Under the pieces are notes generated by a model. That model was not told the DNA's origin. It saw nothing but the letters and a program-made list of their open reading frames with translations, and searched no databases. A stretch of 64,000 nt of DNA from an uncultured Planctomycetales bacterium (GTDB lineage: Bacteria > Omnitrophota > Gorgyraeia > Zapsychrales > Aceulaceae), in assembly GCA_964486675.1 (NCBI GenBank), contig CAZAOD010000001.1, positions 5,683-69,682 on the forward strand, read 5' to 3'. Shown in pieces: positions 10,084 to 64,000 of this stretch. Every line of letters begins with the position of its first letter. The stretch's first letter is position 1. The position numbers and the translations under genes are program-made.

Positions 10084-10099
10084 ACATGCGAGGTAATTC

Positions 10100-10456
10100 A
10101 TGGCAGAGAGATTCGATCAGCGTGAGTTTGTCCGTGTCCCAGATTGTTCCGATGTTGTCTATACGCCTATTTCGTCAGGCAAAAAGACAAAAAGCGAGAT
10201 CAAAGATATCAGCCAGGCAGGGATCTGCTTTATCTCAGAAGAAAAGCTTGAACCCGGAGCCACTATCGATCTGACGCTCACCTTGGAAAAGATCGGATTT
10301 TCTTTTGTCGCGCAGGGGGTCGTGAGATGGGTCAATGAAGTTGTGAAGAATAGGCGCTACGAGGTCGGTATCAAGTTCGTTGATCTTCCCGATCAAGATA
10401 TACGTCGTTTGCTTAATTATATGAATTCCATGAAAAAGTTTGATAGTTATCGGTAA
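10100..10456 (+). CDS. PilZ-domain c-di-GMP-binding protein (stand-alone, 118 aa)
   Basis: An N-terminal R..EFVR (RxxxR-like) and a DISQAGICF (DxSxxG) motif pair, preceded by a GAGGT ribosome-binding site. Confidence 0.65.
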   Translation: MAERFDQREFVRVPDCSDVVYTPISSGKKTKSEIKDISQAGICFISEEKLEPGATIDLTLTLEKIGFSFVAQGVVRWVNEVVKNRRYEVGIKFVDLPDQDIRRLLNYMNSMKKFDSYR

Positions 10457-59826: not shown

Positions 59827-60001
59827 GAAATCAAAATTCAAAAGTCAAAATCCAAAGCTAAAAAACTGATACAAAATCACAAAAATAAGAACATAAAAAT
59901 TTTAATTTCATTCTTATTAGACTATTTTTTGAGCTTAAATTATATTTTTTGTGCTAATGGATCGTTAAATTCTGAATTTTGACTTTTAATTTTTAAATTT
60001 C
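59827..60001. repeat. AT-rich ~175-bp element bounded by ~25-nt imperfect inverted repeats (perfect 12-nt core AAAAGTCAAAAT / ATTTTGACTTTT)
   Basis: The left arm (59827-59851) is GAAATCAAAATTCAAAAGTCAAAAT. The reverse complement of the right arm (59976-60001) is GAAATTTAAAAATTAAAAGTCAAAAT. The perfect cores are at 59840-59851 and 59976-59987. No coding potential. Confidence 0.5.
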
Positions 60002-60034
60002 TGAAACCGCTTTCCCAGACCCATTTTTACCCCC

Positions 60035-60062
60035 TTGTTTTTTATTGATCACGTGCTATATT
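60035..60062 (+). promoter_or_regulatory. promoter TTGTTT-16-TATATT with an extended -10 (TGcTATATT) driving the structured RNA
   Basis: -35 at 60035-60040, TG at 60054-60055, -10 at 60057-60062; predicted transcription start near 60069-60070. Confidence 0.4.
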
Positions 60063-60067
60063 CTCCA

Positions 60068-60262
60068 TTGAGCCGATAAAGGCAAACCCGGGGAAACCCG
60101 GGGGCGCAAAACCACAGACCTAAGTTGTCTGAAGCAGCTTGCGCCCCGCACCCGGAGTGGTGCAGGGGCTACCTCAAGGGCCGGTTGGGCCGCAGTGGAT
60201 GACAAGACGGTGGCTGGGTTGCCGAAGTGGACATACTTTGTCGGCTCTTTCTTTTTTCCTTC
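60068..60262 (+). ncRNA. candidate c-di-GMP-I (GEMM) riboswitch with a terminator-type expression platform
   Basis: The core GGCAAACC-CGGG-GAAA-CCCG-GGGGCGCAAAACC at 60081-60113 closely matches the V. cholerae Vc2 core GGCAAACC-AUUC-GAAA-GAGU-GGGACGCAAAGCC. The next hairpin is CAGAC-CUAAGUU-GUCUG and carries a CCUAAG tetraloop-receptor motif. The 3' junction GGGGCUACC (60165-60173) resembles Vc2 GGGGUUACC. A P1-like pairing forms between 60068-60074 and 60167-60177. GGGUUGCC (60216-60223) can pair with GGCAAACCC (60081-60089) and overlaps the terminator stem. Confidence 0.6.
60221..60257 (+). terminator. intrinsic terminator of the riboswitch expression platform
   Basis: Stem GCCGA (60221-60225) / TCGGC (60241-60245), a 15-nt loop, then the U-tract TCTTTCTTTTTT (60246-60257). 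Confidence 0.5.
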
Positions 60263-60278
60263 CTTTAAATCCTTCTCC

Positions 60279-60306
60279 TTGAAATTTGCAAAAAGTATGC
60301 TATATT
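60279..60306 (+). promoter_or_regulatory. second promoter TTGAAA-16-TATATT with the same extended -10 TGCTATATT (or a duplicated sequence)
   Basis: -35 at 60279-60284 and -10 at 60301-60306; TATGCTATATTTTCC parallels ACGTGCTATATTCTCC at 60051-60066. It lies between the terminator and the large ORF. Confidence 0.4.
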
Positions 60307-60448
60307 TTCCCAAAAGAAACCGCTTTCTTATCCAATCTGTTCTAATTTCCTGCCACGGAAAAAAGGTTTAAGGCTTGCTTTTTTAGCCTTTGAGTACGTA
60401 TGTTGATCAATTTTGATTCTAACAAGTTGTCAAAAAAGGAGAAGTTTC

Positions 60449-63400
60449 ATGACCGCCTGCGGTAACAAAGCCCAAAGAAAATTCATTTCAAAGATCATTT
60501 CTGTCTTTATCGCCTTTAGTTTTCTTTTCACCTCTGTTATTCCAAGCTATGCCCAGAGTCTCTCTGGGCCTGCGGTCATTCCATCGGGGCTAATCACGCC
60601 CACGGCAGCCTTTATGCCTGTTATGTTGCGCGCTATTGAGATCGACCCTGTTAATCCTTTGCATTTTGGCTTTATCGTGGATAACGGTGACACTGGTCTA
60701 GAAGGTGAGGCCTTGACCGCGGAAGCCAAGAATCTCATTCGCTACTTTTTAGCCTCCTTGACAACCCCTGAAAAAGAAATGTGGGTTAACCTTTCGCCGT
60801 ATGAAAAAGACCGCATCATTCCTGATAGCTTCGGCCAGACCCAGATGGGCCGAGACCTTTTAGCCCAAGACTACATGTTGAAACAATTGACAGCTTCCTT
60901 GATATATCCGGAAGATGAACTTGGCAAGAAGTTTTGGGACAAGATTTACAAGACTGCTTATGAGAAGTATGGCACCACCGAGATGCCCATGGATACATTC
61001 AACAAGATCTGGATCTTGCCTAAGAAGGCCACCGTTTATGAAAACAATAACCGAGTTTTTGTTGTTGATAGTGAGCTCGCCGTTATGATGGAGGAGGATG
61101 TTCTGGCACTGCAGAAAAGTAGAGAGGAGAAAGTAGAGAGTAGAGAGATTGGAAAAGATGCGGGTGGCTTGAGCCAGAGCTCTCAGCCGCGCGCAGCGGC
61201 AGGGGTTCCCCGCGGGGGGATGGGTGCCGCGAGCACGGATGAGATGGCGAAAGACAGGACCCGCACCTTGACATCCCAGATCGTGCGCGAGATCGTATTG
61301 CCTGAGATCGAAAAAGAGGTCAATTTTGGCAAGAATTTTGCTGCCCTTCGCCAGGTTTACAGTGCGATGATCCTGGCAGCGTGGTACAAGAACAATTTGA
61401 GGGAAAGCTTGCTTGGAAAAGTCTATATGGATCAAAATAAGATCAAGGGGATCGATCTTGTTGATAAAACTGAGAAGCAGAGGATCTATGATGAATACGT
61501 TAATGCCTTTAAAAAAGGTATTTATGACTTTATTAAGGTTGAGCACGACCAATACACGGGAAAAAATATTCCGCGTAAGTATTTTTCAGGCGGTTTCACG
61601 CCTACTACTTCTGATGGGATCCCTTTAGGCGAGGCGTTGGAAGAGGTCACTCCATCCGCAGATAAATTGCAAGCAAAGGGAAGTGCAACGAGATTTGACG
61701 CGAATCTAAGGGAAAGTAAGGACGGAAAGGGTTCCCCCGGCTCTGCGATCATTTCAAGGATATCGTCTTTAGAGCCGGCATCTGTTCTTTTGCGAGAGAT
61801 CGCGTCTAAGTTCGAGCTGGCTGGAAAAATGCTTTTAAGCTTTAATATTCTTACAGAGGAAGGATATTCTTACGGATTTTCTTTAAGCGATCCCCAGGCT
61901 TCAGGTCGCCTAAGCGTTGTTTTGCCAAAAGCTAAGAAGGTTACGATGTTCTTTAAAGATAGGACCTCTTTAGCCTTTGCCAAAGATGCAGCAAATAGCC
62001 GATGGAAGATAACACAGTTTTACGGTCAAGGATTTAATTTCAAGGACGAAGGAGCAAAATGGAGTGAGCTCGGTGGCTCTGTCAATATCCCTAAGTTTCA
62101 CGCTATTGTGGATCAAAGAGATATGACAACAGGGATCATCGCGGAAAATATGGCTTTAGGGTTGGTCAGTGACGACATCAAGCAGGTCGAGTGGTATAGG
62201 CCCAGCAGTAAAAACCTCATGGCTGAAAAACTTGCTTCTGTGCCGCAAGATGTCAGAGAACCTTTGACGGTAAAGATGTTTATTCGTGACGGCTATGTTG
62301 TTCTTCATCGAGCCAAAAAGGCAAATTTTTGGGAGTTTGTATCGCAGGGGATGCCACTGGCAGAAGATAAAGAAGAAGCCGTGTCTTCCAGCATTCGTAT
62401 TATTTCAAAGGAGGAGATCGATCCGTTCGTTCAAAAGTTAGGCATGGACAAGCCGGGTAGCACTTTTAACCGAGATTATTTTGCAAGTCTTATTGCTCAA
62501 TATAATCAGCAAATGGTCGATAAGCAAAAAGGAATTGTTAACGATCTGGTTATTGGCAAGAATTTCTTTCCAAATTCTATGATCTCAGCGTCAAAAATGA
62601 AAGAGATCATGAACGCGACGGATTTCGCGACAGAGATCTTGTCGCAGGAGGAAAAGTATCTTGAGGCTGCCAAGAATGTTGATCATCGCATTGATTTTAT
62701 GAACGGCGGAGCAGGGACTTCTGTGGGGGGAGTTGGGGCGAAGTCCATGGCCTTGACCTTTGTTGAAGATCTACAAGGATTTGATAAAGGCGGAAATCCT
62801 AAGATCTTTAAAAATGTGGAATTTAGCATTCTCGATGTAAAGTATGTCCACAACATCATTGCCGCCCAAAAAGGTCGCGTTGCGCGCGCCAGTATTCGTG
62901 AGCTTGTAAGCAAAGATACCGTTGGCCCTATCTCAGAGTTTCGCAATAATCATATTTGCCTTCTTGATAAGATCGATGATCGCATCCCAGAAAGTAAAAA
63001 GCGCACGTACGCTGAATATATTAAAGGAATGCAGGGGATTAACTTAGACGAAGACATGATCGTGCAGGCAATCCAACCCGTTGTTGATGTGGCAACAGGA
63101 GAGCTAACAGATCGAAAAACATCTCCAGGCGGTCATGGTGTTTTTGGGCGAATGTCTTTTGAAGAAATCCTTAATGATGTTCTGCCTGAAGATAAGGTAG
63201 TGATCCGCGATATTACTAATGGGGATGGTCCGAACAATCAAATTCCGTCCGTTGTTTTAGGCTGGATGGCGGCCAACAAGGTCCCCATGGTACTTTTGTC
63301 ATCGACAACCATGGAATTGGATAAAAAAGGTGGCAAGGTGGGTGCCCAGCCTGTCGAGGACGGCCTTTTGCTGCAGGATCTTACCGCTGACAACACGCGC

Positions 63401-64000
63401 ATTAACATGATGGAAACTGTTCAAGCGGGCAAGGTTGGGCAGGGTGAGCTTTTTCAGAAGATCGGTTTGACTACAGGTCCTGTTGAAGATGTTGGGCAGG
63501 AGGGGGAGCAGTTCTTTAATACAAACATTATGGGTATCAACGAGACTGTGCTTCAGCCATTCTTGCGCGAGCTGGAACAGATCATCGGACACGAACAATA
63601 TGTGCAGTGGACATCGCCAACTTTTATCGATAACCCAAAAGAAAACGGCACGATCTATCAGATCGAGGGCGCCTTGGGCCATGTGCTTCAGAATCTTGAT
63701 TACCACGTGCGCTACACCGATAACCAGAAAGTAAAAGACTTGATGAAAAAGTACGGTTGGACGAGGCTTTTGCATATCGTGAATTTTACACCTGAATACC
63801 GAGAACTATGCTTTACGCCGGTTAAATTTGCCTTGGATTGGAATTATTATTTATCTGAGCATTTTACGATGGACACAAAAGAATGGTCCATGAGAAACAA
63901 CAAGCCAGGACATTTGGCACGGTTTGAATTTTCTAAGTCCTACGAGGATTATTATCAGAAAAACAAGATCAACGCGCATAAAATTCTTCCATTGGGTTCT
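60449..64000 (+). CDS. very large protein (>1184 aa, 3' end beyond window) with an N-terminal signal peptide/anchor, a ~600-aa uncharacterised region and a C-terminal UDPGP-family (UTP-sugar-1-phosphate uridylyltransferase-like) domain
   Basis: The frame is open from ATG 60449 (AAGGAG ribosome-binding site 8 nt upstream) to the window end. The N-terminus is MTACGNKAQRKFISKIISVFIAFSFLFTSVIPSYAQS. UDPGP motifs are FMNGGAGTSVGG..KS (eukaryotic LNGGLGTSMG..KS), SPGGHG (PPGHGD), KKGGKVG (KGGTL) and FNTNIMGIN (FNTNNLW). Minus-strand ORFs here are antisense artefacts. Confidence 0.7.
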   Translation, partial: MTACGNKAQRKFISKIISVFIAFSFLFTSVIPSYAQSLSGPAVIPSGLITPTAAFMPVMLRAIEIDPVNPLHFGFIVDNGDTGLEGEALTAEAKNLIRYFLASLTTPEKEMWVNLSPYEKDRIIPDSFGQTQMGRDLLAQDYMLKQLTASLIYPEDELGKKFWDKIYKTAYEKYGTTEMPMDTFNKIWILPKKATVYENNNRVFVVDSELAVMMEEDVLALQKSREEKVESREIGKDAGGLSQSSQPRAAAGVPRGGMGAASTDEMAKDRTRTLTSQIVREIVLPEIEKEVNFGKNFAALRQVYSAMILAAWYKNNLRESLLGKVYMDQNKIKGIDLVDKTEKQRIYDEYVNAFKKGIYDFIKVEHDQYTGKNIPRKYFSGGFTPTTSDGIPLGEALEEVTPSADKLQAKGSATRFDANLRESKDGKGSPGSAIISRISSLEPASVLLREIASKFELAGKMLLSFNILTEEGYSYGFSLSDPQASGRLSVVLPKAKKVTMFFKDRTSLAFAKDAANSRWKITQFYGQGFNFKDEGAKWSELGGSVNIPKFHAIVDQRDMTTGIIAENMALGLVSDDIKQVEWYRPSSKNLMAEKLASVPQDVREPLTVKMFIRDGYVVLHRAKKANFWEFVSQGMPLAEDKEEAVSSSIRIISKEEIDPFVQKLGMDKPGSTFNRDYFASLIAQYNQQMVDKQKGIVNDLVIGKNFFPNSMISASKMKEIMNATDFATEILSQEEKYLEAAKNVDHRIDFMNGGAGTSVGGVGAKSMALTFVEDLQGFDKGGNPKIFKNVEFSILDVKYVHNIIAAQKGRVARASIRELVSKDTVGPISEFRNNHICLLDKIDDRIPESKKRTYAEYIKGMQGINLDEDMIVQAIQPVVDVATGELTDRKTSPGGHGVFGRMSFEEILNDVLPEDKVVIRDITNGDGPNNQIPSVVLGWMAANKVPMVLLSSTTMELDKKGGKVGAQPVEDGLLLQDLTADNTRINMMETVQAGKVGQGELFQKIGLTTGPVEDVGQEGEQFFNTNIMGINETVLQPFLRELEQIIGHEQYVQWTSPTFIDNPKENGTIYQIEGALGHVLQNLDYHVRYTDNQKVKDLMKKYGWTRLLHIVNFTPEYRELCFTPVKFALDWNYYLSEHFTMDTKEWSMRNNKPGHLARFEFSKSYEDYYQKNKINAHKILPLGS

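What the first reader, a model, noticed from the sequence alone, without database searches (positions are those of the whole stretch)
60035..60262. Candidate c-di-GMP-I (GEMM) riboswitch with an OFF-type terminator platform upstream of a giant ORF
A ~190-nt RNA with its own extended -10 promoter folds into the three-helix architecture of the c-di-GMP-I aptamer. The core GGCAAACC-(4 bp)-GAAA-(4 bp)-GGGGCGCAAAACC is nearly identical to the Vibrio cholerae Vc2 core. The following hairpin carries a canonical CCUAAG tetraloop-receptor half-site, and the 3' junction GGGGCUACC mirrors Vc2 GGGGUUACC. Downstream, GGGUUGCC can pair with the aptamer's GGCAAACCC and overlaps the 5' strand of a terminator hairpin plus U-tract. 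This is the switching arrangement expected if ligand binding promotes termination. Together with the PilZ gene in the LPS cluster, it points to c-di-GMP control of envelope functions in this organism.
Basis: partly seen in the sequence, partly recalled or inferred. Interest (0 to 1): 0.8.

Follow-up and report, generated by a model that had tools for sequence, protein, structure and literature searches.

The report
c-di-GMP riboswitch with self-clamping terminator

Summary
A class-I c-di-GMP (GEMM-I) aptamer is present, at 60072-60227 rather than 60068-60180. Rfam scores it 61.5 bits (E 4e-12). Eight distinct syntenic orthologues from Omnitrophota metagenomes keep the fold: 97% of cells paired, 13 pairs with compensatory changes.

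The ligand-contact equivalents G20, A47 and C92 are G60081, A60108 and C60222. The interhelical pair C44-G83 is C60105-G60213. The best-scoring Rfam model is the 'GGC' variant, but the RNA has A, not G, at the variant-defining position, so it is the canonical type.

The first 12 nt of the transcript (P1 5' strand, J1/2, G20) pair perfectly with 60236-60247, which is followed by a U-tract. Ligand pocket and terminator stem therefore exclude each other. I predict an ON switch, not OFF; this is inferred, not tested.

The downstream gene has its own conserved promoter. Five of eight orthologues carry a second constitutive-looking terminator in between. Cis control of the gene is uncertain, and an autonomous c-di-GMP-binding small RNA is a live alternative.

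It is a known class with unusual periphery and context.

The parts
60035..60062 (+). Riboswitch promoter: -35-like TTGTTT (60035-60040), 16-nt spacer, extended -10 TGcTATATT (60054-60062). Predicted start is about 60069-60071.
   Evidence: Invariant CCTTGTT...TG(C/T)TATATT in orthologues. The scanner calls it in L001 and L086. It is not called in the window because the -35 matches only 3 of 6.
60070..60081 (+). Leader GAGCCGAUAAAG. It holds the P1 5' strand (60073-60075) and J1/2 (60076-60081), with the G20 equivalent at G60081. It is also the 5' strand of the 12-bp terminator clamp.
   Evidence: Invariant in 8 of 8 orthologues. It is paired to 60236-60247 in the MFE and RNAalifold structures.
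60072..60227 (+). c-di-GMP-I (GEMM-I) aptamer, full length.
   Evidence: RF03167 61.5 bits against a gathering score of 59, E 4.3e-12, model positions 1-80. The orthologues L001 and L002 match RF01051 at 62.1 and 68.2 bits against a gathering score of 35.
60082..60107 (+). P2. Closing pairs are G60082-C60107 and C60083-G60106, with an AAA bulge and a 6-bp stem. The GAAA tetraloop is at 60093-60096. The C44 equivalent is C60105.
   Evidence: cmscan alignment. Compensatory changes: C-G to U-A at 60083/60106 in 4 of 8 sequences, plus two more pairs.
60108..60108 (+). A47 equivalent (it intercalates between the two guanines of the ligand in Vc2). The RF03167 'GGC' consensus has G here.
   Evidence: Blank in the match line at model position 37. 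The RF01051 consensus has A there.
60110..60124 (+). P3 proximal 5' strand (60110-60120) and the tetraloop-receptor half CCUAAG (60119-60124).
   Evidence: cmscan alignment. 10 pairs, 100% paired, A-U to G-C at 60118/60211.
60125..60205 (+). Lineage-specific P3 distal extension. It contains the helix UUGUC/GACAA and the conserved internal loop UGAA (60130-60133) / GGAU (60197-60200). A short helix follows, then a three-way junction with hairpin A (60143-60169) and hairpin B (60179-60191).
   Evidence: cmscan treats it as an 81-nt insertion. RNAalifold predicts this fold. Hairpin A has 6 pairs with compensatory changes and hairpin B has 2.
60206..60222 (+). Receptor 3' half GACGG (60206-60210) and P3 3' strand (60209-60220), with the G83 equivalent at G60213. 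J3/1 is G60221 and C60222; C60222 is the C92 equivalent.
   Evidence: cmscan alignment. GGCUGGGUU(G/A)CCG is invariant apart from one position.
60223..60227 (+). P1 3' strand CGAAG. Pairs are C60223-G60075, G60224-C60074 and G60227-C60073, with an AA bulge. It can alternatively pair with 60236-60245.
   Evidence: cmscan P1 columns. Pair check and energies.
60228..60235 (+). Spacer UGGACAUA. It is variable: 8-10 nt in the window clade and 25-34 nt with an extra hairpin in the L001, L002, L086 and L087 clade.
   Evidence: Alignments.
60236..60247 (+). Terminator 3' strand CUUUGUCGGCUC. It is perfectly complementary (one G-U) to the leader at 60070-60081.
   Evidence: Invariant in 6 of 8 orthologues, with one extra U in L086 and L087. 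The duplex energy is -18.2 kcal/mol, and forming the pairing lowers the computed energy from -60.8 to -79.3.
60248..60257 (+). U-tract UUUCUUUUUU.
   Evidence: A U-rich tract directly follows the clamp in 8 of 8 orthologues.
60279..60306 (+). Second promoter (P2): TTGAAA, 16-nt spacer, TGcTATATT. It lies downstream of the riboswitch terminator.
   Evidence: 10 of 12 matches plus TG. It is present in all 8 orthologues at variable distance from the riboswitch.
60307..60448 (+). Conserved 5' UTR of the P2 transcript. It includes the GAAACCGCUUUC box (60316-60327), the CCUGCCACGG motif (60349-60358) and the RBS AAGGAGAAG (60436-60444).
   Evidence: Near-identical in L078. The GCCACGG motif is shared with paralogue leaders.
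60449..64000 (+). Start of a giant ORF (at least 1184 aa, running off the window). It has a signal/TM segment, a conserved ~380-aa Omnitrophota family N-domain, a middle region and a UDP-glucose-pyrophosphorylase-like part.
   Evidence: Translation. Homologues. 33% identity to the UDPGP region of P0005. No Pfam or NCBIfam hit for the ORF itself.

Best explanation
The region 60070-60257 encodes a canonical (G20/A47/C92-type) class-I c-di-GMP riboswitch RNA, transcribed from its own extended -10 promoter. The aptamer is the usual three-helix junction: P1, P2 with a GAAA tetraloop, and P3 with a receptor. The tip of P3 is extended by an ~80-nt three-way junction specific to this Omnitrophota lineage.

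The expression platform is an intrinsic terminator whose 3' strand (60236-60247, followed by a U-tract) pairs with the first 12 nt of the transcript. That leader contains the P1 5' strand, J1/2 and the ligand-contacting G20 equivalent. More weakly, the same 3' strand can pair with the P1 3' strand instead.

Without ligand, the leader-tail clamp closes the three-way junction and terminates transcription. With c-di-GMP bound, both the leader and the P1 3' strand are held in the ligand pocket. The terminator strand then has no strong partner, and RNA polymerase reads through. This is an ON switch under kinetic control.

In the window, read-through transcripts would run across the gene's own promoter into the giant ORF.

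Shown: the aptamer identity, its boundaries, covariation, and conservation of clamp and U-tract. Inferred: ligand binding, the direction of switching, and the effect on the gene.
For: - Rfam: RF03167 at 61.5 bits, E 4e-12. A second same-clan match also passes its own gathering score but is hidden by clan competition. The orthologues L001 and L002 match RF01051 at 62 and 68 bits.
- The G20, A47, C92, C44 and G83 equivalents are present by model alignment. Their roles are described in PMC4744006.
- Covariation across eight distinct syntenic orthologues: 97.1% of cells paired and 13 pairs with double-sided changes, against 1-2 in slid controls and 0 of 500 shuffles.
- The leader is invariant in 8 of 8 and the tail in 6 of 8 (one extra U in the other two), while the spacer between aptamer and tail varies from 8 to 34 nt. 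A U-tract follows in all eight.
- The MFE and RNAalifold structures of all tested orthologues contain the 12-bp clamp.
- Computed energies: core alone -60.8, core plus clamp -79.3, core plus the local alternative -65.7, core plus P1 -56.4 kcal/mol.
- Tail hairpins compatible with the bound aptamer are weak in the window clade, -3.8 to -8.4 kcal/mol.
- Precedent: terminator T1 of the class-I riboswitch Bc1 unfolds when c-di-GMP is added (PMC11218506).
Against: - No covariation supports the clamp, because both strands are invariant. The pairing is inferred from conservation and energy only.
- The simple terminator scanner does not call a + strand terminator here.
- At equilibrium the clamp outcompetes any realistic ligand binding energy, so the model needs a kinetic trap.
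- In the L001, L002, L086 and L087 clade, composite local hairpins of -13 to -16 kcal/mol could still form next to the U-tract in the bound state.
- Five of 8 orthologues have a second strong terminator between T1 and the gene, and all 8 have a separate gene promoter. Read-through at T1 may therefore not reach the gene.
- Ligand binding was not and cannot be tested here.
Confidence: 0.5

Rival explanations
1. Autonomous c-di-GMP-binding small RNA. The unit from promoter through aptamer to clamp terminator (plus a second terminator in most relatives) is its own gene. It would make a stable RNA of about 190 nt whose ends are zipped together. c-di-GMP binding would change its conformation by opening the inner clamp and freeing the 3' tail, or change which of two 3' ends is made. 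The output would be something other than read-through into the giant gene, for example a trans-acting or protein-binding role involving the P3 extension.
For: - It has its own strong, conserved promoter.
- Five of 8 orthologues have a canonical second terminator 10-110 nt after T1 and before the gene's promoter. These terminators differ in sequence between clades, which suggests selection for insulation.
- The gene has its own conserved promoter and a leader shared with riboswitch-less paralogues.
- The distance from riboswitch to P2 varies from 21 to about 240 nt.
- The P3 extension is conserved and covarying, with invariant loop sequences and no known role in ligand binding.
- Bc1 shows that a class-I riboswitch with a dual terminator can fail to regulate its downstream genes (PMC11218506).
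Against: - In the window, L078 and L082 there is no second terminator, and only 21 nt separate the U-tract from P2 in the window. Read-through would enter the gene there.
- The unit is always found directly upstream of the same orthologous gene. These genomes are related, however, so synteny is weak evidence.
- No target or partner is known.
- Stand-alone riboswitch-like sRNAs are rare.
Confidence: 0.22
2. c-di-GMP binding would free the tail to fold into a local terminator hairpin. Without ligand, an alternative pairing (GGGUUGCC with GGCAAACCC, or leader with tail) would act as an anti-terminator.
For: - GGGUUGCC (60216-60223) can pair 7 of 8 with GGCAAACC (60082-60089), from the sequence.
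- A local hairpin at 60226-60246 next to the U-tract is compatible with a 2-bp P1 (-8.4 kcal/mol in isolation).
- In the L001, L002, L086 and L087 clade, local composite hairpins reach -13 to -16 kcal/mol.
- A paralogue's compact riboswitch (L041) does look OFF-type.
Against: - The model was built on an aptamer ending at 60180, which Rfam and covariation refute.
- The GGCAAACC / GGGcUGCC complementarity is part of the family consensus itself, not a feature of this platform.
- The strongest and only invariant partner of the terminator strand is the leader. A leader-tail helix ends at the U-tract just as a local hairpin does, so it is itself terminator-like rather than an anti-terminator.
- The local hairpin is not conserved between clades.
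Confidence: 0.13
3. Member of the c-di-GMP-I-GGC variant class (RF03167), with an altered or unknown ligand.
For: RF03167 is the top-scoring clan member for the window, L078, L082 and L083, at 60-62 bits against a gathering score of 59.
Against: - The position that distinguishes the RF03167 consensus (CGC-G-AA) from RF01051 (CGC-A-AA) is A in all eight sequences.
- The margin over the gathering score is 1-3 bits.
- The orthologues L001 and L002 score best with RF01051.
- That 'GGC' names positions 20/47/92 is my inference from the two consensus lines. The original paper could not be read.
Confidence: 0.03

Closest known systems
c-di-GMP-I (GEMM-I) riboswitch, RF01051, e.g. Vibrio cholerae Vc2 and Vc1
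   Same: - The same three-helix junction.
- GAAA tetraloop in P2 and a CCUAAG-type receptor in P3.
- G20/A47/C92 and C44-G83 equivalents present.
- Located in a 5' region with its own promoter.
- According to the discussion in PMC11218506, the tfoY gene downstream of Vc2 is controlled both by the riboswitch and by the transcription factor VpsT. This resembles the dual-promoter arrangement here.
   Different: - An ~80-nt three-way-junction extension beyond the receptor in P3; the RF01051 consensus has a 4-bp stem and a small loop there.
- P1 is only about 3 bp.
- The transcript's first 12 nt, including J1/2 and G20, form the terminator stem.
- The host phylum is Omnitrophota.
Bc1 c-di-GMP-I riboswitch of the Bacillus cereus group (PMC11218506)
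   Same: - Class-I aptamer followed by terminator T1, which is reported to unfold with c-di-GMP.
- A second terminator T2 that stays folded. Five of 8 orthologues of this locus likewise have a second, ordinary terminator downstream of the riboswitch terminator.
   Different: - In the window itself there is no second terminator.
- Here a separate promoter for the gene lies after the terminator(s).
- The T1 stem is built from the transcript's 5' end rather than from a local hairpin.
- The organisms and regulated genes are unrelated.
c-di-GMP-I-GGC variant (RF03167)
   Same: It is the best-scoring Rfam model. The sequence shares GGCAAACC...UGCCGAAG and a modelled P1.
   Different: This RNA has A where the variant consensus has G (model position 37, the A47 equivalent). 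It also has a tetraloop receptor, which the variant consensus lacks.
Compact GEMM-I upstream of a paralogous gene in another Omnitrophota MAG (L041:1082-1160)
   Same: It belongs to the same riboswitch clan and lies upstream of a member of the same giant-protein family. It also has A at position 47.
   Different: - It has no P3 extension and a GUAA loop.
- It has an independent 13-bp terminator whose 5' strand is complementary to the P3 3' part (-16.2 kcal/mol). This is an OFF-type layout.
- It has no leader-tail clamp.

Membership tests
c-di-GMP-I / GEMM-I (Rfam clan CL00126, RF01051) | Covariance-model score at or above the curated gathering score | tested here: met
   In the window, RF03167 scores 61.5 against 59, and one further same-clan match above its own gathering score is hidden by clan competition. 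The orthologues L001 and L002 match RF01051 at 62.1 and 68.2 against 35. The RF01051 score of the window itself could not be displayed.
c-di-GMP-I / GEMM-I (Rfam clan CL00126, RF01051) | P2 hairpin with GNRA tetraloop, and P3 with a tetraloop receptor, forming a three-helix junction | tested here: met
   GAAA is at 60093-60096. The receptor is CCUAAG at 60119-60124 paired with GACGG at 60206-60210. The receptor's 3' half varies at two positions among orthologues (GACGG, GAGGG, AAUGG, GAUGG).
c-di-GMP-I / GEMM-I (Rfam clan CL00126, RF01051) | Ligand-contact nucleotides G20, A47 and C92 (Vc2 numbering; PMC4744006) | tested here: met
   By model alignment these are G60081, A60108 and C60222, invariant in 8 orthologues. 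The mapping of Vc2 numbers to model columns is my inference.
c-di-GMP-I / GEMM-I (Rfam clan CL00126, RF01051) | Interhelical Watson-Crick pair C44-G83, described as universally conserved (PMC4744006) | tested here: met
   C60105 lies in the P2 3' bulge and G60213 in the P3 3' bulge. Both are invariant.
c-di-GMP-I / GEMM-I (Rfam clan CL00126, RF01051) | Helices supported by covariation in homologues | tested here: met
   Eight distinct sequences: 97.1% paired, 13 pairs with double-sided changes against 1-2 in slid controls. P1 and most of proximal P3 are invariant and therefore uninformative.
c-di-GMP-I / GEMM-I (Rfam clan CL00126, RF01051) | Binds c-di-GMP and changes gene expression in response | not testable with these tools
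   This needs in-line probing or ITC, and transcription or reporter assays.
c-di-GMP-I-GGC variant (RF03167) | G instead of A at the A47-equivalent position (consensus CGC-G-AA against CGC-A-AA) | tested here: not met
   A60108 is present and the match line is blank at model position 37. The same A is present in all 8 orthologues.
c-AMP-GMP riboswitch (GEMM-Ib) | A instead of G at the G20-equivalent position (from my own knowledge; PMC9481103 mentions a key pocket change in c-AMP-GMP variants) | tested here: not met
   G60081 is invariant.
Intrinsic (rho-independent) terminator | Stable GC-containing stem ending 0-2 nt before a U-tract | tested here: inconclusive
   A 12-bp leader-tail helix (-18.2 kcal/mol duplex) ends at 60247 and the U-tract starts at 60248. 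However, its 'loop' is the whole 154-nt aptamer, the local alternative is only -9.2 kcal/mol, and the scanner does not call it.

The most novel reading that the evidence does not exclude
The unit may be a free-standing c-di-GMP-sensing small RNA rather than a cis riboswitch. Its features are its own promoter, a canonical aptamer, an added three-way-junction domain on P3, a 12-bp clamp joining its 5' and 3' ends that must partly open for ligand binding, and in most relatives a back-up terminator that insulates it from the neighbouring gene. Its output would be in trans or through a bound protein. It would link c-di-GMP to the large Omnitrophota family of membrane-anchored enzyme-fusion proteins by a route other than read-through.
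Probability: 0.2. Interest if true: 0.65.

Novelty: new member of a known kind. Interest (0 to 1): 0.4.

Why it matters
- It places c-di-GMP RNA sensing in Omnitrophota, an uncultured phylum of mostly ultra-small, possibly host-dependent bacteria. I found no paper describing a riboswitch in this phylum: the only papers holding both 'Omnitrophota' and 'riboswitch' concern the ComFB c-di-NMP receptor protein family.
- The aptamer core is textbook, so the ligand call is safe. The periphery is not textbook. A covarying 80-nt domain grafted onto P3, and a terminator stem made from the very 5' end of the transcript including the ligand-contacting G, make a compact and testable example of how pocket formation and termination can exclude each other.
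- The extra terminators and the separate gene promoter in relatives echo the puzzling Bc1 case. This locus could help decide whether some class-I 'riboswitches' are really independent RNAs.
- The neighbouring gene belongs to a very large, undescribed family of Omnitrophota proteins. They fuse a conserved anchored N-domain to ordinary metabolic enzymes, which is worth its own study.

Tried and rejected
- I tried to display the RF01051 score for the window by a lenient search and by trimming P1. RF03167 still won the clan competition, so the score stays hidden.
- The paper that defined the GGC variant could not be read by DOI or PMC id. The meaning of 'GGC' is therefore inferred from the two consensus lines.
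- I tested whether riboswitch control is general for the paralogue family. Only 3 of 76 loci have a GEMM-I upstream: L001, L002 and L041. Twenty loci were checked with Rfam and the rest with regular expressions only.
- L077 from the metagenome pattern scan is a chance match. L088 (P0071) has no riboswitch.
- P0023 and P0086 are paralogues, not the genes of L001 and L002. The cargo domains of those orthologues remain unknown.
- The anti-RBS idea: CUUCUCCUU at 60272-60280 is perfectly complementary to the RBS at 60436-60444. Across orthologues the complementarity is no better than composition-preserving shuffles, so I dismissed it.
- I looked by eye for a relay between the freed tail and the second terminator in orthologues. 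No consistent pairing was found.
- The N-domain of the giant protein has no Pfam or NCBIfam hit. It has no sequence match in the PDB. The AF2 model (pLDDT 67.7) has no fold match in the PDB.
Full report
**What is in the sequence**

A scan of the whole window against Rfam gives one match above gathering score. It lies at 60072-60227 on the + strand and matches RF03167 (c-di-GMP-I-GGC) at 61.5 bits against a gathering score of 59, E 4.3e-12, covering the full model. A second match from the same clan also passes its own threshold but is hidden by clan competition.

The alignment puts an 81-nt insertion in the terminal part of P3. The aptamer therefore ends at 60227, not near 60180. The 3' half is not. 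The true 3' core is GGUGGCUGGGUUGCCGAAG at 60209-60227.

**Organism and relatives**

The downstream ORF starts at ATG 60449 and runs at least 1184 aa off the window. It has thousands of homologues, all in Candidatus Omnitrophota. The upstream genes are aroA, trpD, trpC, trpF and a PolB-exonuclease-like gene.

Seven distinct syntenic orthologues of the RNA were recovered:
- by protein-anchored loci (L001 from Ca. Aceula lacicola, and L002);
- by a DNA pattern taken from the insertion (L078, L082, L083);
- by contig look-ups for the closest proteins (L086, and L087 from Ca. Aceula meridiana).

L082, L084, L086 and L087 show the same neighbouring genes. L001 and L002 score best with the canonical model RF01051, at 62.1 and 68.2 bits against a gathering score of 35. 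The window, L078, L082 and L083 score best with RF03167 by 1-3 bits over its threshold.

**Canonical type or GGC variant**

The two Rfam consensus lines differ at one pocket position. RF01051 has ACGC-A-AAgCc and RF03167 has ACGC-G-AAgCc. All eight sequences have A there (A60108 in the window).

Using the published roles of G20, A47, C92 and the C44-G83 interhelical pair (PMC4744006), the equivalents here are G60081, A60108, C60222 and C60105-G60213. All are invariant.

I therefore file this RNA as a canonical c-di-GMP-I aptamer. The RF03167 label is a scoring artefact of the flanks. That 'GGC' names positions 20/47/92 is my inference, because the defining paper could not be read.

**Structure and covariation**

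RNAalifold on the orthologues predicts four elements:
- P2.
- P3 with the receptor internal loop.
- A 5-bp continuation (UUGUC/GACAA) followed by an invariant internal loop, UGAA against GGAU.
- A short helix and a three-way junction with two hairpins.

On the eight-sequence alignment, the aptamer plus extension has 97.1% of cells paired. Thirteen pairs show changes on both sides (29 cells), against 1-2 pairs when partners are slid by 1-3 columns and 0 of 500 shuffles reaching the observed values. Hairpin A of the extension carries six of those pairs, so the extension is a real, selected structure.

This refutes it as a junction.

**Expression platform**

The promoter (TTGTTT at 60035-60040, TGcTATATT at 60054-60062) is conserved, and the scanner calls it in L001 and L086. 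It places the start at about 60070.

The first 12 nt, GAGCCGAUAAAG, are invariant in all eight sequences. They comprise the P1 5' strand, J1/2 and the G20 equivalent. They are perfectly complementary (one G-U) to CUUUGUCGGCUC at 60236-60247. That segment is invariant in six sequences, has one extra U in two, and is followed by a U-tract in all eight. The spacer before it ranges from 8 to 34 nt.

Every MFE and consensus fold contains this 12-bp clamp. Computed energies for the window RNA:

| Structure | Energy (kcal/mol) |
|---|---|
| Helical core alone | -60.8 |
| Core plus clamp | -79.3 |
| Core plus local alternative (P1 3' strand with the tail) | -65.7 |
| Core plus canonical P1 | -56.4 |

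Hairpins of the tail that remain possible when the pocket is formed are weak in the window clade, at -3.8 to -8.4 kcal/mol. In the other clade they are composite and not conserved.

**Mechanism**

The ligand pocket needs J1/2, G20, C92 and P1. The terminator strand needs either the leader or the P1 3' strand. The two states therefore exclude each other.

My best reading is that the clamp, acting as terminator, forms by default. c-di-GMP captured during transcription would prevent it, giving read-through (ON). At equilibrium the clamp would win, so this requires kinetic control. From my own knowledge, the very slow ligand off-rates reported for this class make that plausible.

In addition, the complementarity between GGCAAACC and GGGcUGCC is part of the family consensus itself.

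A compact GEMM-I upstream of a paralogue in another MAG (L041) shows what an OFF layout looks like. It has an independent 13-bp terminator whose 5' strand is complementary to P3. The window locus is built differently.

**Does it control the giant gene?**

This is the weak point.
- A second near-consensus promoter (TTGAAA, 16 nt, TGcTATATT, at 60279-60306) lies downstream of the riboswitch terminator in all eight loci.
- It is followed by a conserved leader that is shared with riboswitch-less paralogues.
- Five of eight orthologues (L083, L001, L002, L086, L087) have a second, ordinary GC-hairpin-plus-U-run terminator 10-110 nt after the first and before that promoter. The hairpins score -7.4 to -19.2 kcal/mol, and the scanner calls the one in L001.
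- The window, L078 and L082 have none.
- Only 3 of 76 paralogue loci have any GEMM-I.

The arrangement recalls Bc1 of Bacillus thuringiensis. There T1 unfolds with c-di-GMP, T2 stays folded, and the downstream genes do not respond (PMC11218506).

I therefore keep a substantial probability (about 0.2) that the unit is an autonomous c-di-GMP-binding small RNA.

**The gene**

The ORF has a signal/TM segment and a ~380-aa N-domain ending IPRKYFSGG, conserved across the family at about 50% identity. A middle region is shared with the syntenic orthologue P0001 up to residue ~640. A C-terminal part is 33% identical to the UDP-glucose pyrophosphorylase region of P0005.

Family members fuse the same N-domain to many different enzymes. 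The N-domain has no Pfam, NCBIfam or PDB match by sequence or fold.

A PilZ ORF elsewhere in the window and a GGDEF-containing paralogue (P0059) show that the lineage uses c-di-GMP.

**Verdict**

| Claim | My probability |
|---|---|
| Real c-di-GMP-I riboswitch aptamer | about 0.95 |
| ON switch acting on read-through from its own promoter | about 0.5 |
| Autonomous small RNA | about 0.2 |
| OFF switch | about 0.13 |

This is a new member of a known class, with an unusual P3 domain, an unusual clamp terminator and an uncertain regulatory target. Interest is moderate.

Noticed in passing
window 60449-64000 (+); loci L001-L076: The ORF belongs to a very large Omnitrophota-specific paralogue family: more than 3400 database hits and many copies per genome (at least 9 in MAG OFTM38). 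Members have a TM/signal segment, a conserved ~380-aa N-domain ending IPRKYFSGG, a variable 'cargo' of ordinary cytoplasmic enzymes, and a conserved C-terminal tail. The cargo includes UDPGP, phosphoglucomutase, PEPCK, enolase, PGK, hexokinase and GGDEF domains. The N-domain has no Pfam, NCBIfam or PDB match. The Omnitrophota papers I searched do not mention it.
   Followed up: partly
window 60306-60363; L009, L013, L015, L029, L032, L061 about 75-220 nt upstream of the start codons: A candidate 5' UTR RNA motif, ...CC(N)GCCACGG..., is closed by a stem whose sequence varies. The stem is UUUUCC/GGAAAA in the window and CCAAU/AUUGG in several paralogues. It occurs in 11 of 66 paralogue leaders against 1-2 of 66 control regions. 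It has no Rfam match.
   Followed up: partly
window 60003-60014 and 60316-60327; similar boxes in L001, L009, L015, L029, L032: A palindrome-like box, GAAACCGCTTTC, occurs just upstream of the riboswitch promoter and again just after the -10 of the gene's own promoter. Related AAGAAAACG(C/T)TTT boxes follow the -10 in paralogue loci. It may be an operator for a regulator shared by the family.
   Followed up: no
L001:1123-1149, L002:1090-1116, L083:13443-13472, L086:1227-1264, L087 about 975-1065: Second, canonical intrinsic terminators lie between the riboswitch terminator and the gene's promoter in 5 of 8 orthologues. Their sequences differ between clades. They are absent in the window, L078 and L082.
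   Followed up: yes
window 59828-59854 / 59973-59999; L078 2228-2258 / 2385-2415: Inverted repeats of 27-31 nt, separated by about 120 nt of AT-rich DNA, lie between the PolB-exonuclease-like gene and the riboswitch promoter. They occupy the same position in two loci but have unrelated sequences. L082 has none.
   Followed up: partly
L041:1082-1222: A compact GEMM-I (69 bits, GUAA loop, no P3 extension) lies upstream of a paralogous gene in another MAG. It has an independent 13-bp terminator, and its P3 segment is complementary to the terminator 5' strand (-16.2 kcal/mol). This is an OFF-type layout, unlike the window locus.
   Followed up: partly
window 10097-10453 (+): A 119-aa ORF with a PilZ domain (PF07238, 55.7 bits).
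   Followed up: yes
window 60449-62368 compared with P0001 (L082, L084): The syntenic orthologue P0001 (1908 aa) is 67% identical over the first ~640 residues and then diverges completely. The cargo part of even the orthologous gene is therefore exchanged between close relatives.
   Followed up: partly
window 60130-60133 / 60197-60200: An invariant internal loop, UGAA opposite GGAU, sits in the P3 extension. It could form tandem sheared G-A pairs, as in a kink or loop-E-like motif. Its role is unknown.
   Followed up: no
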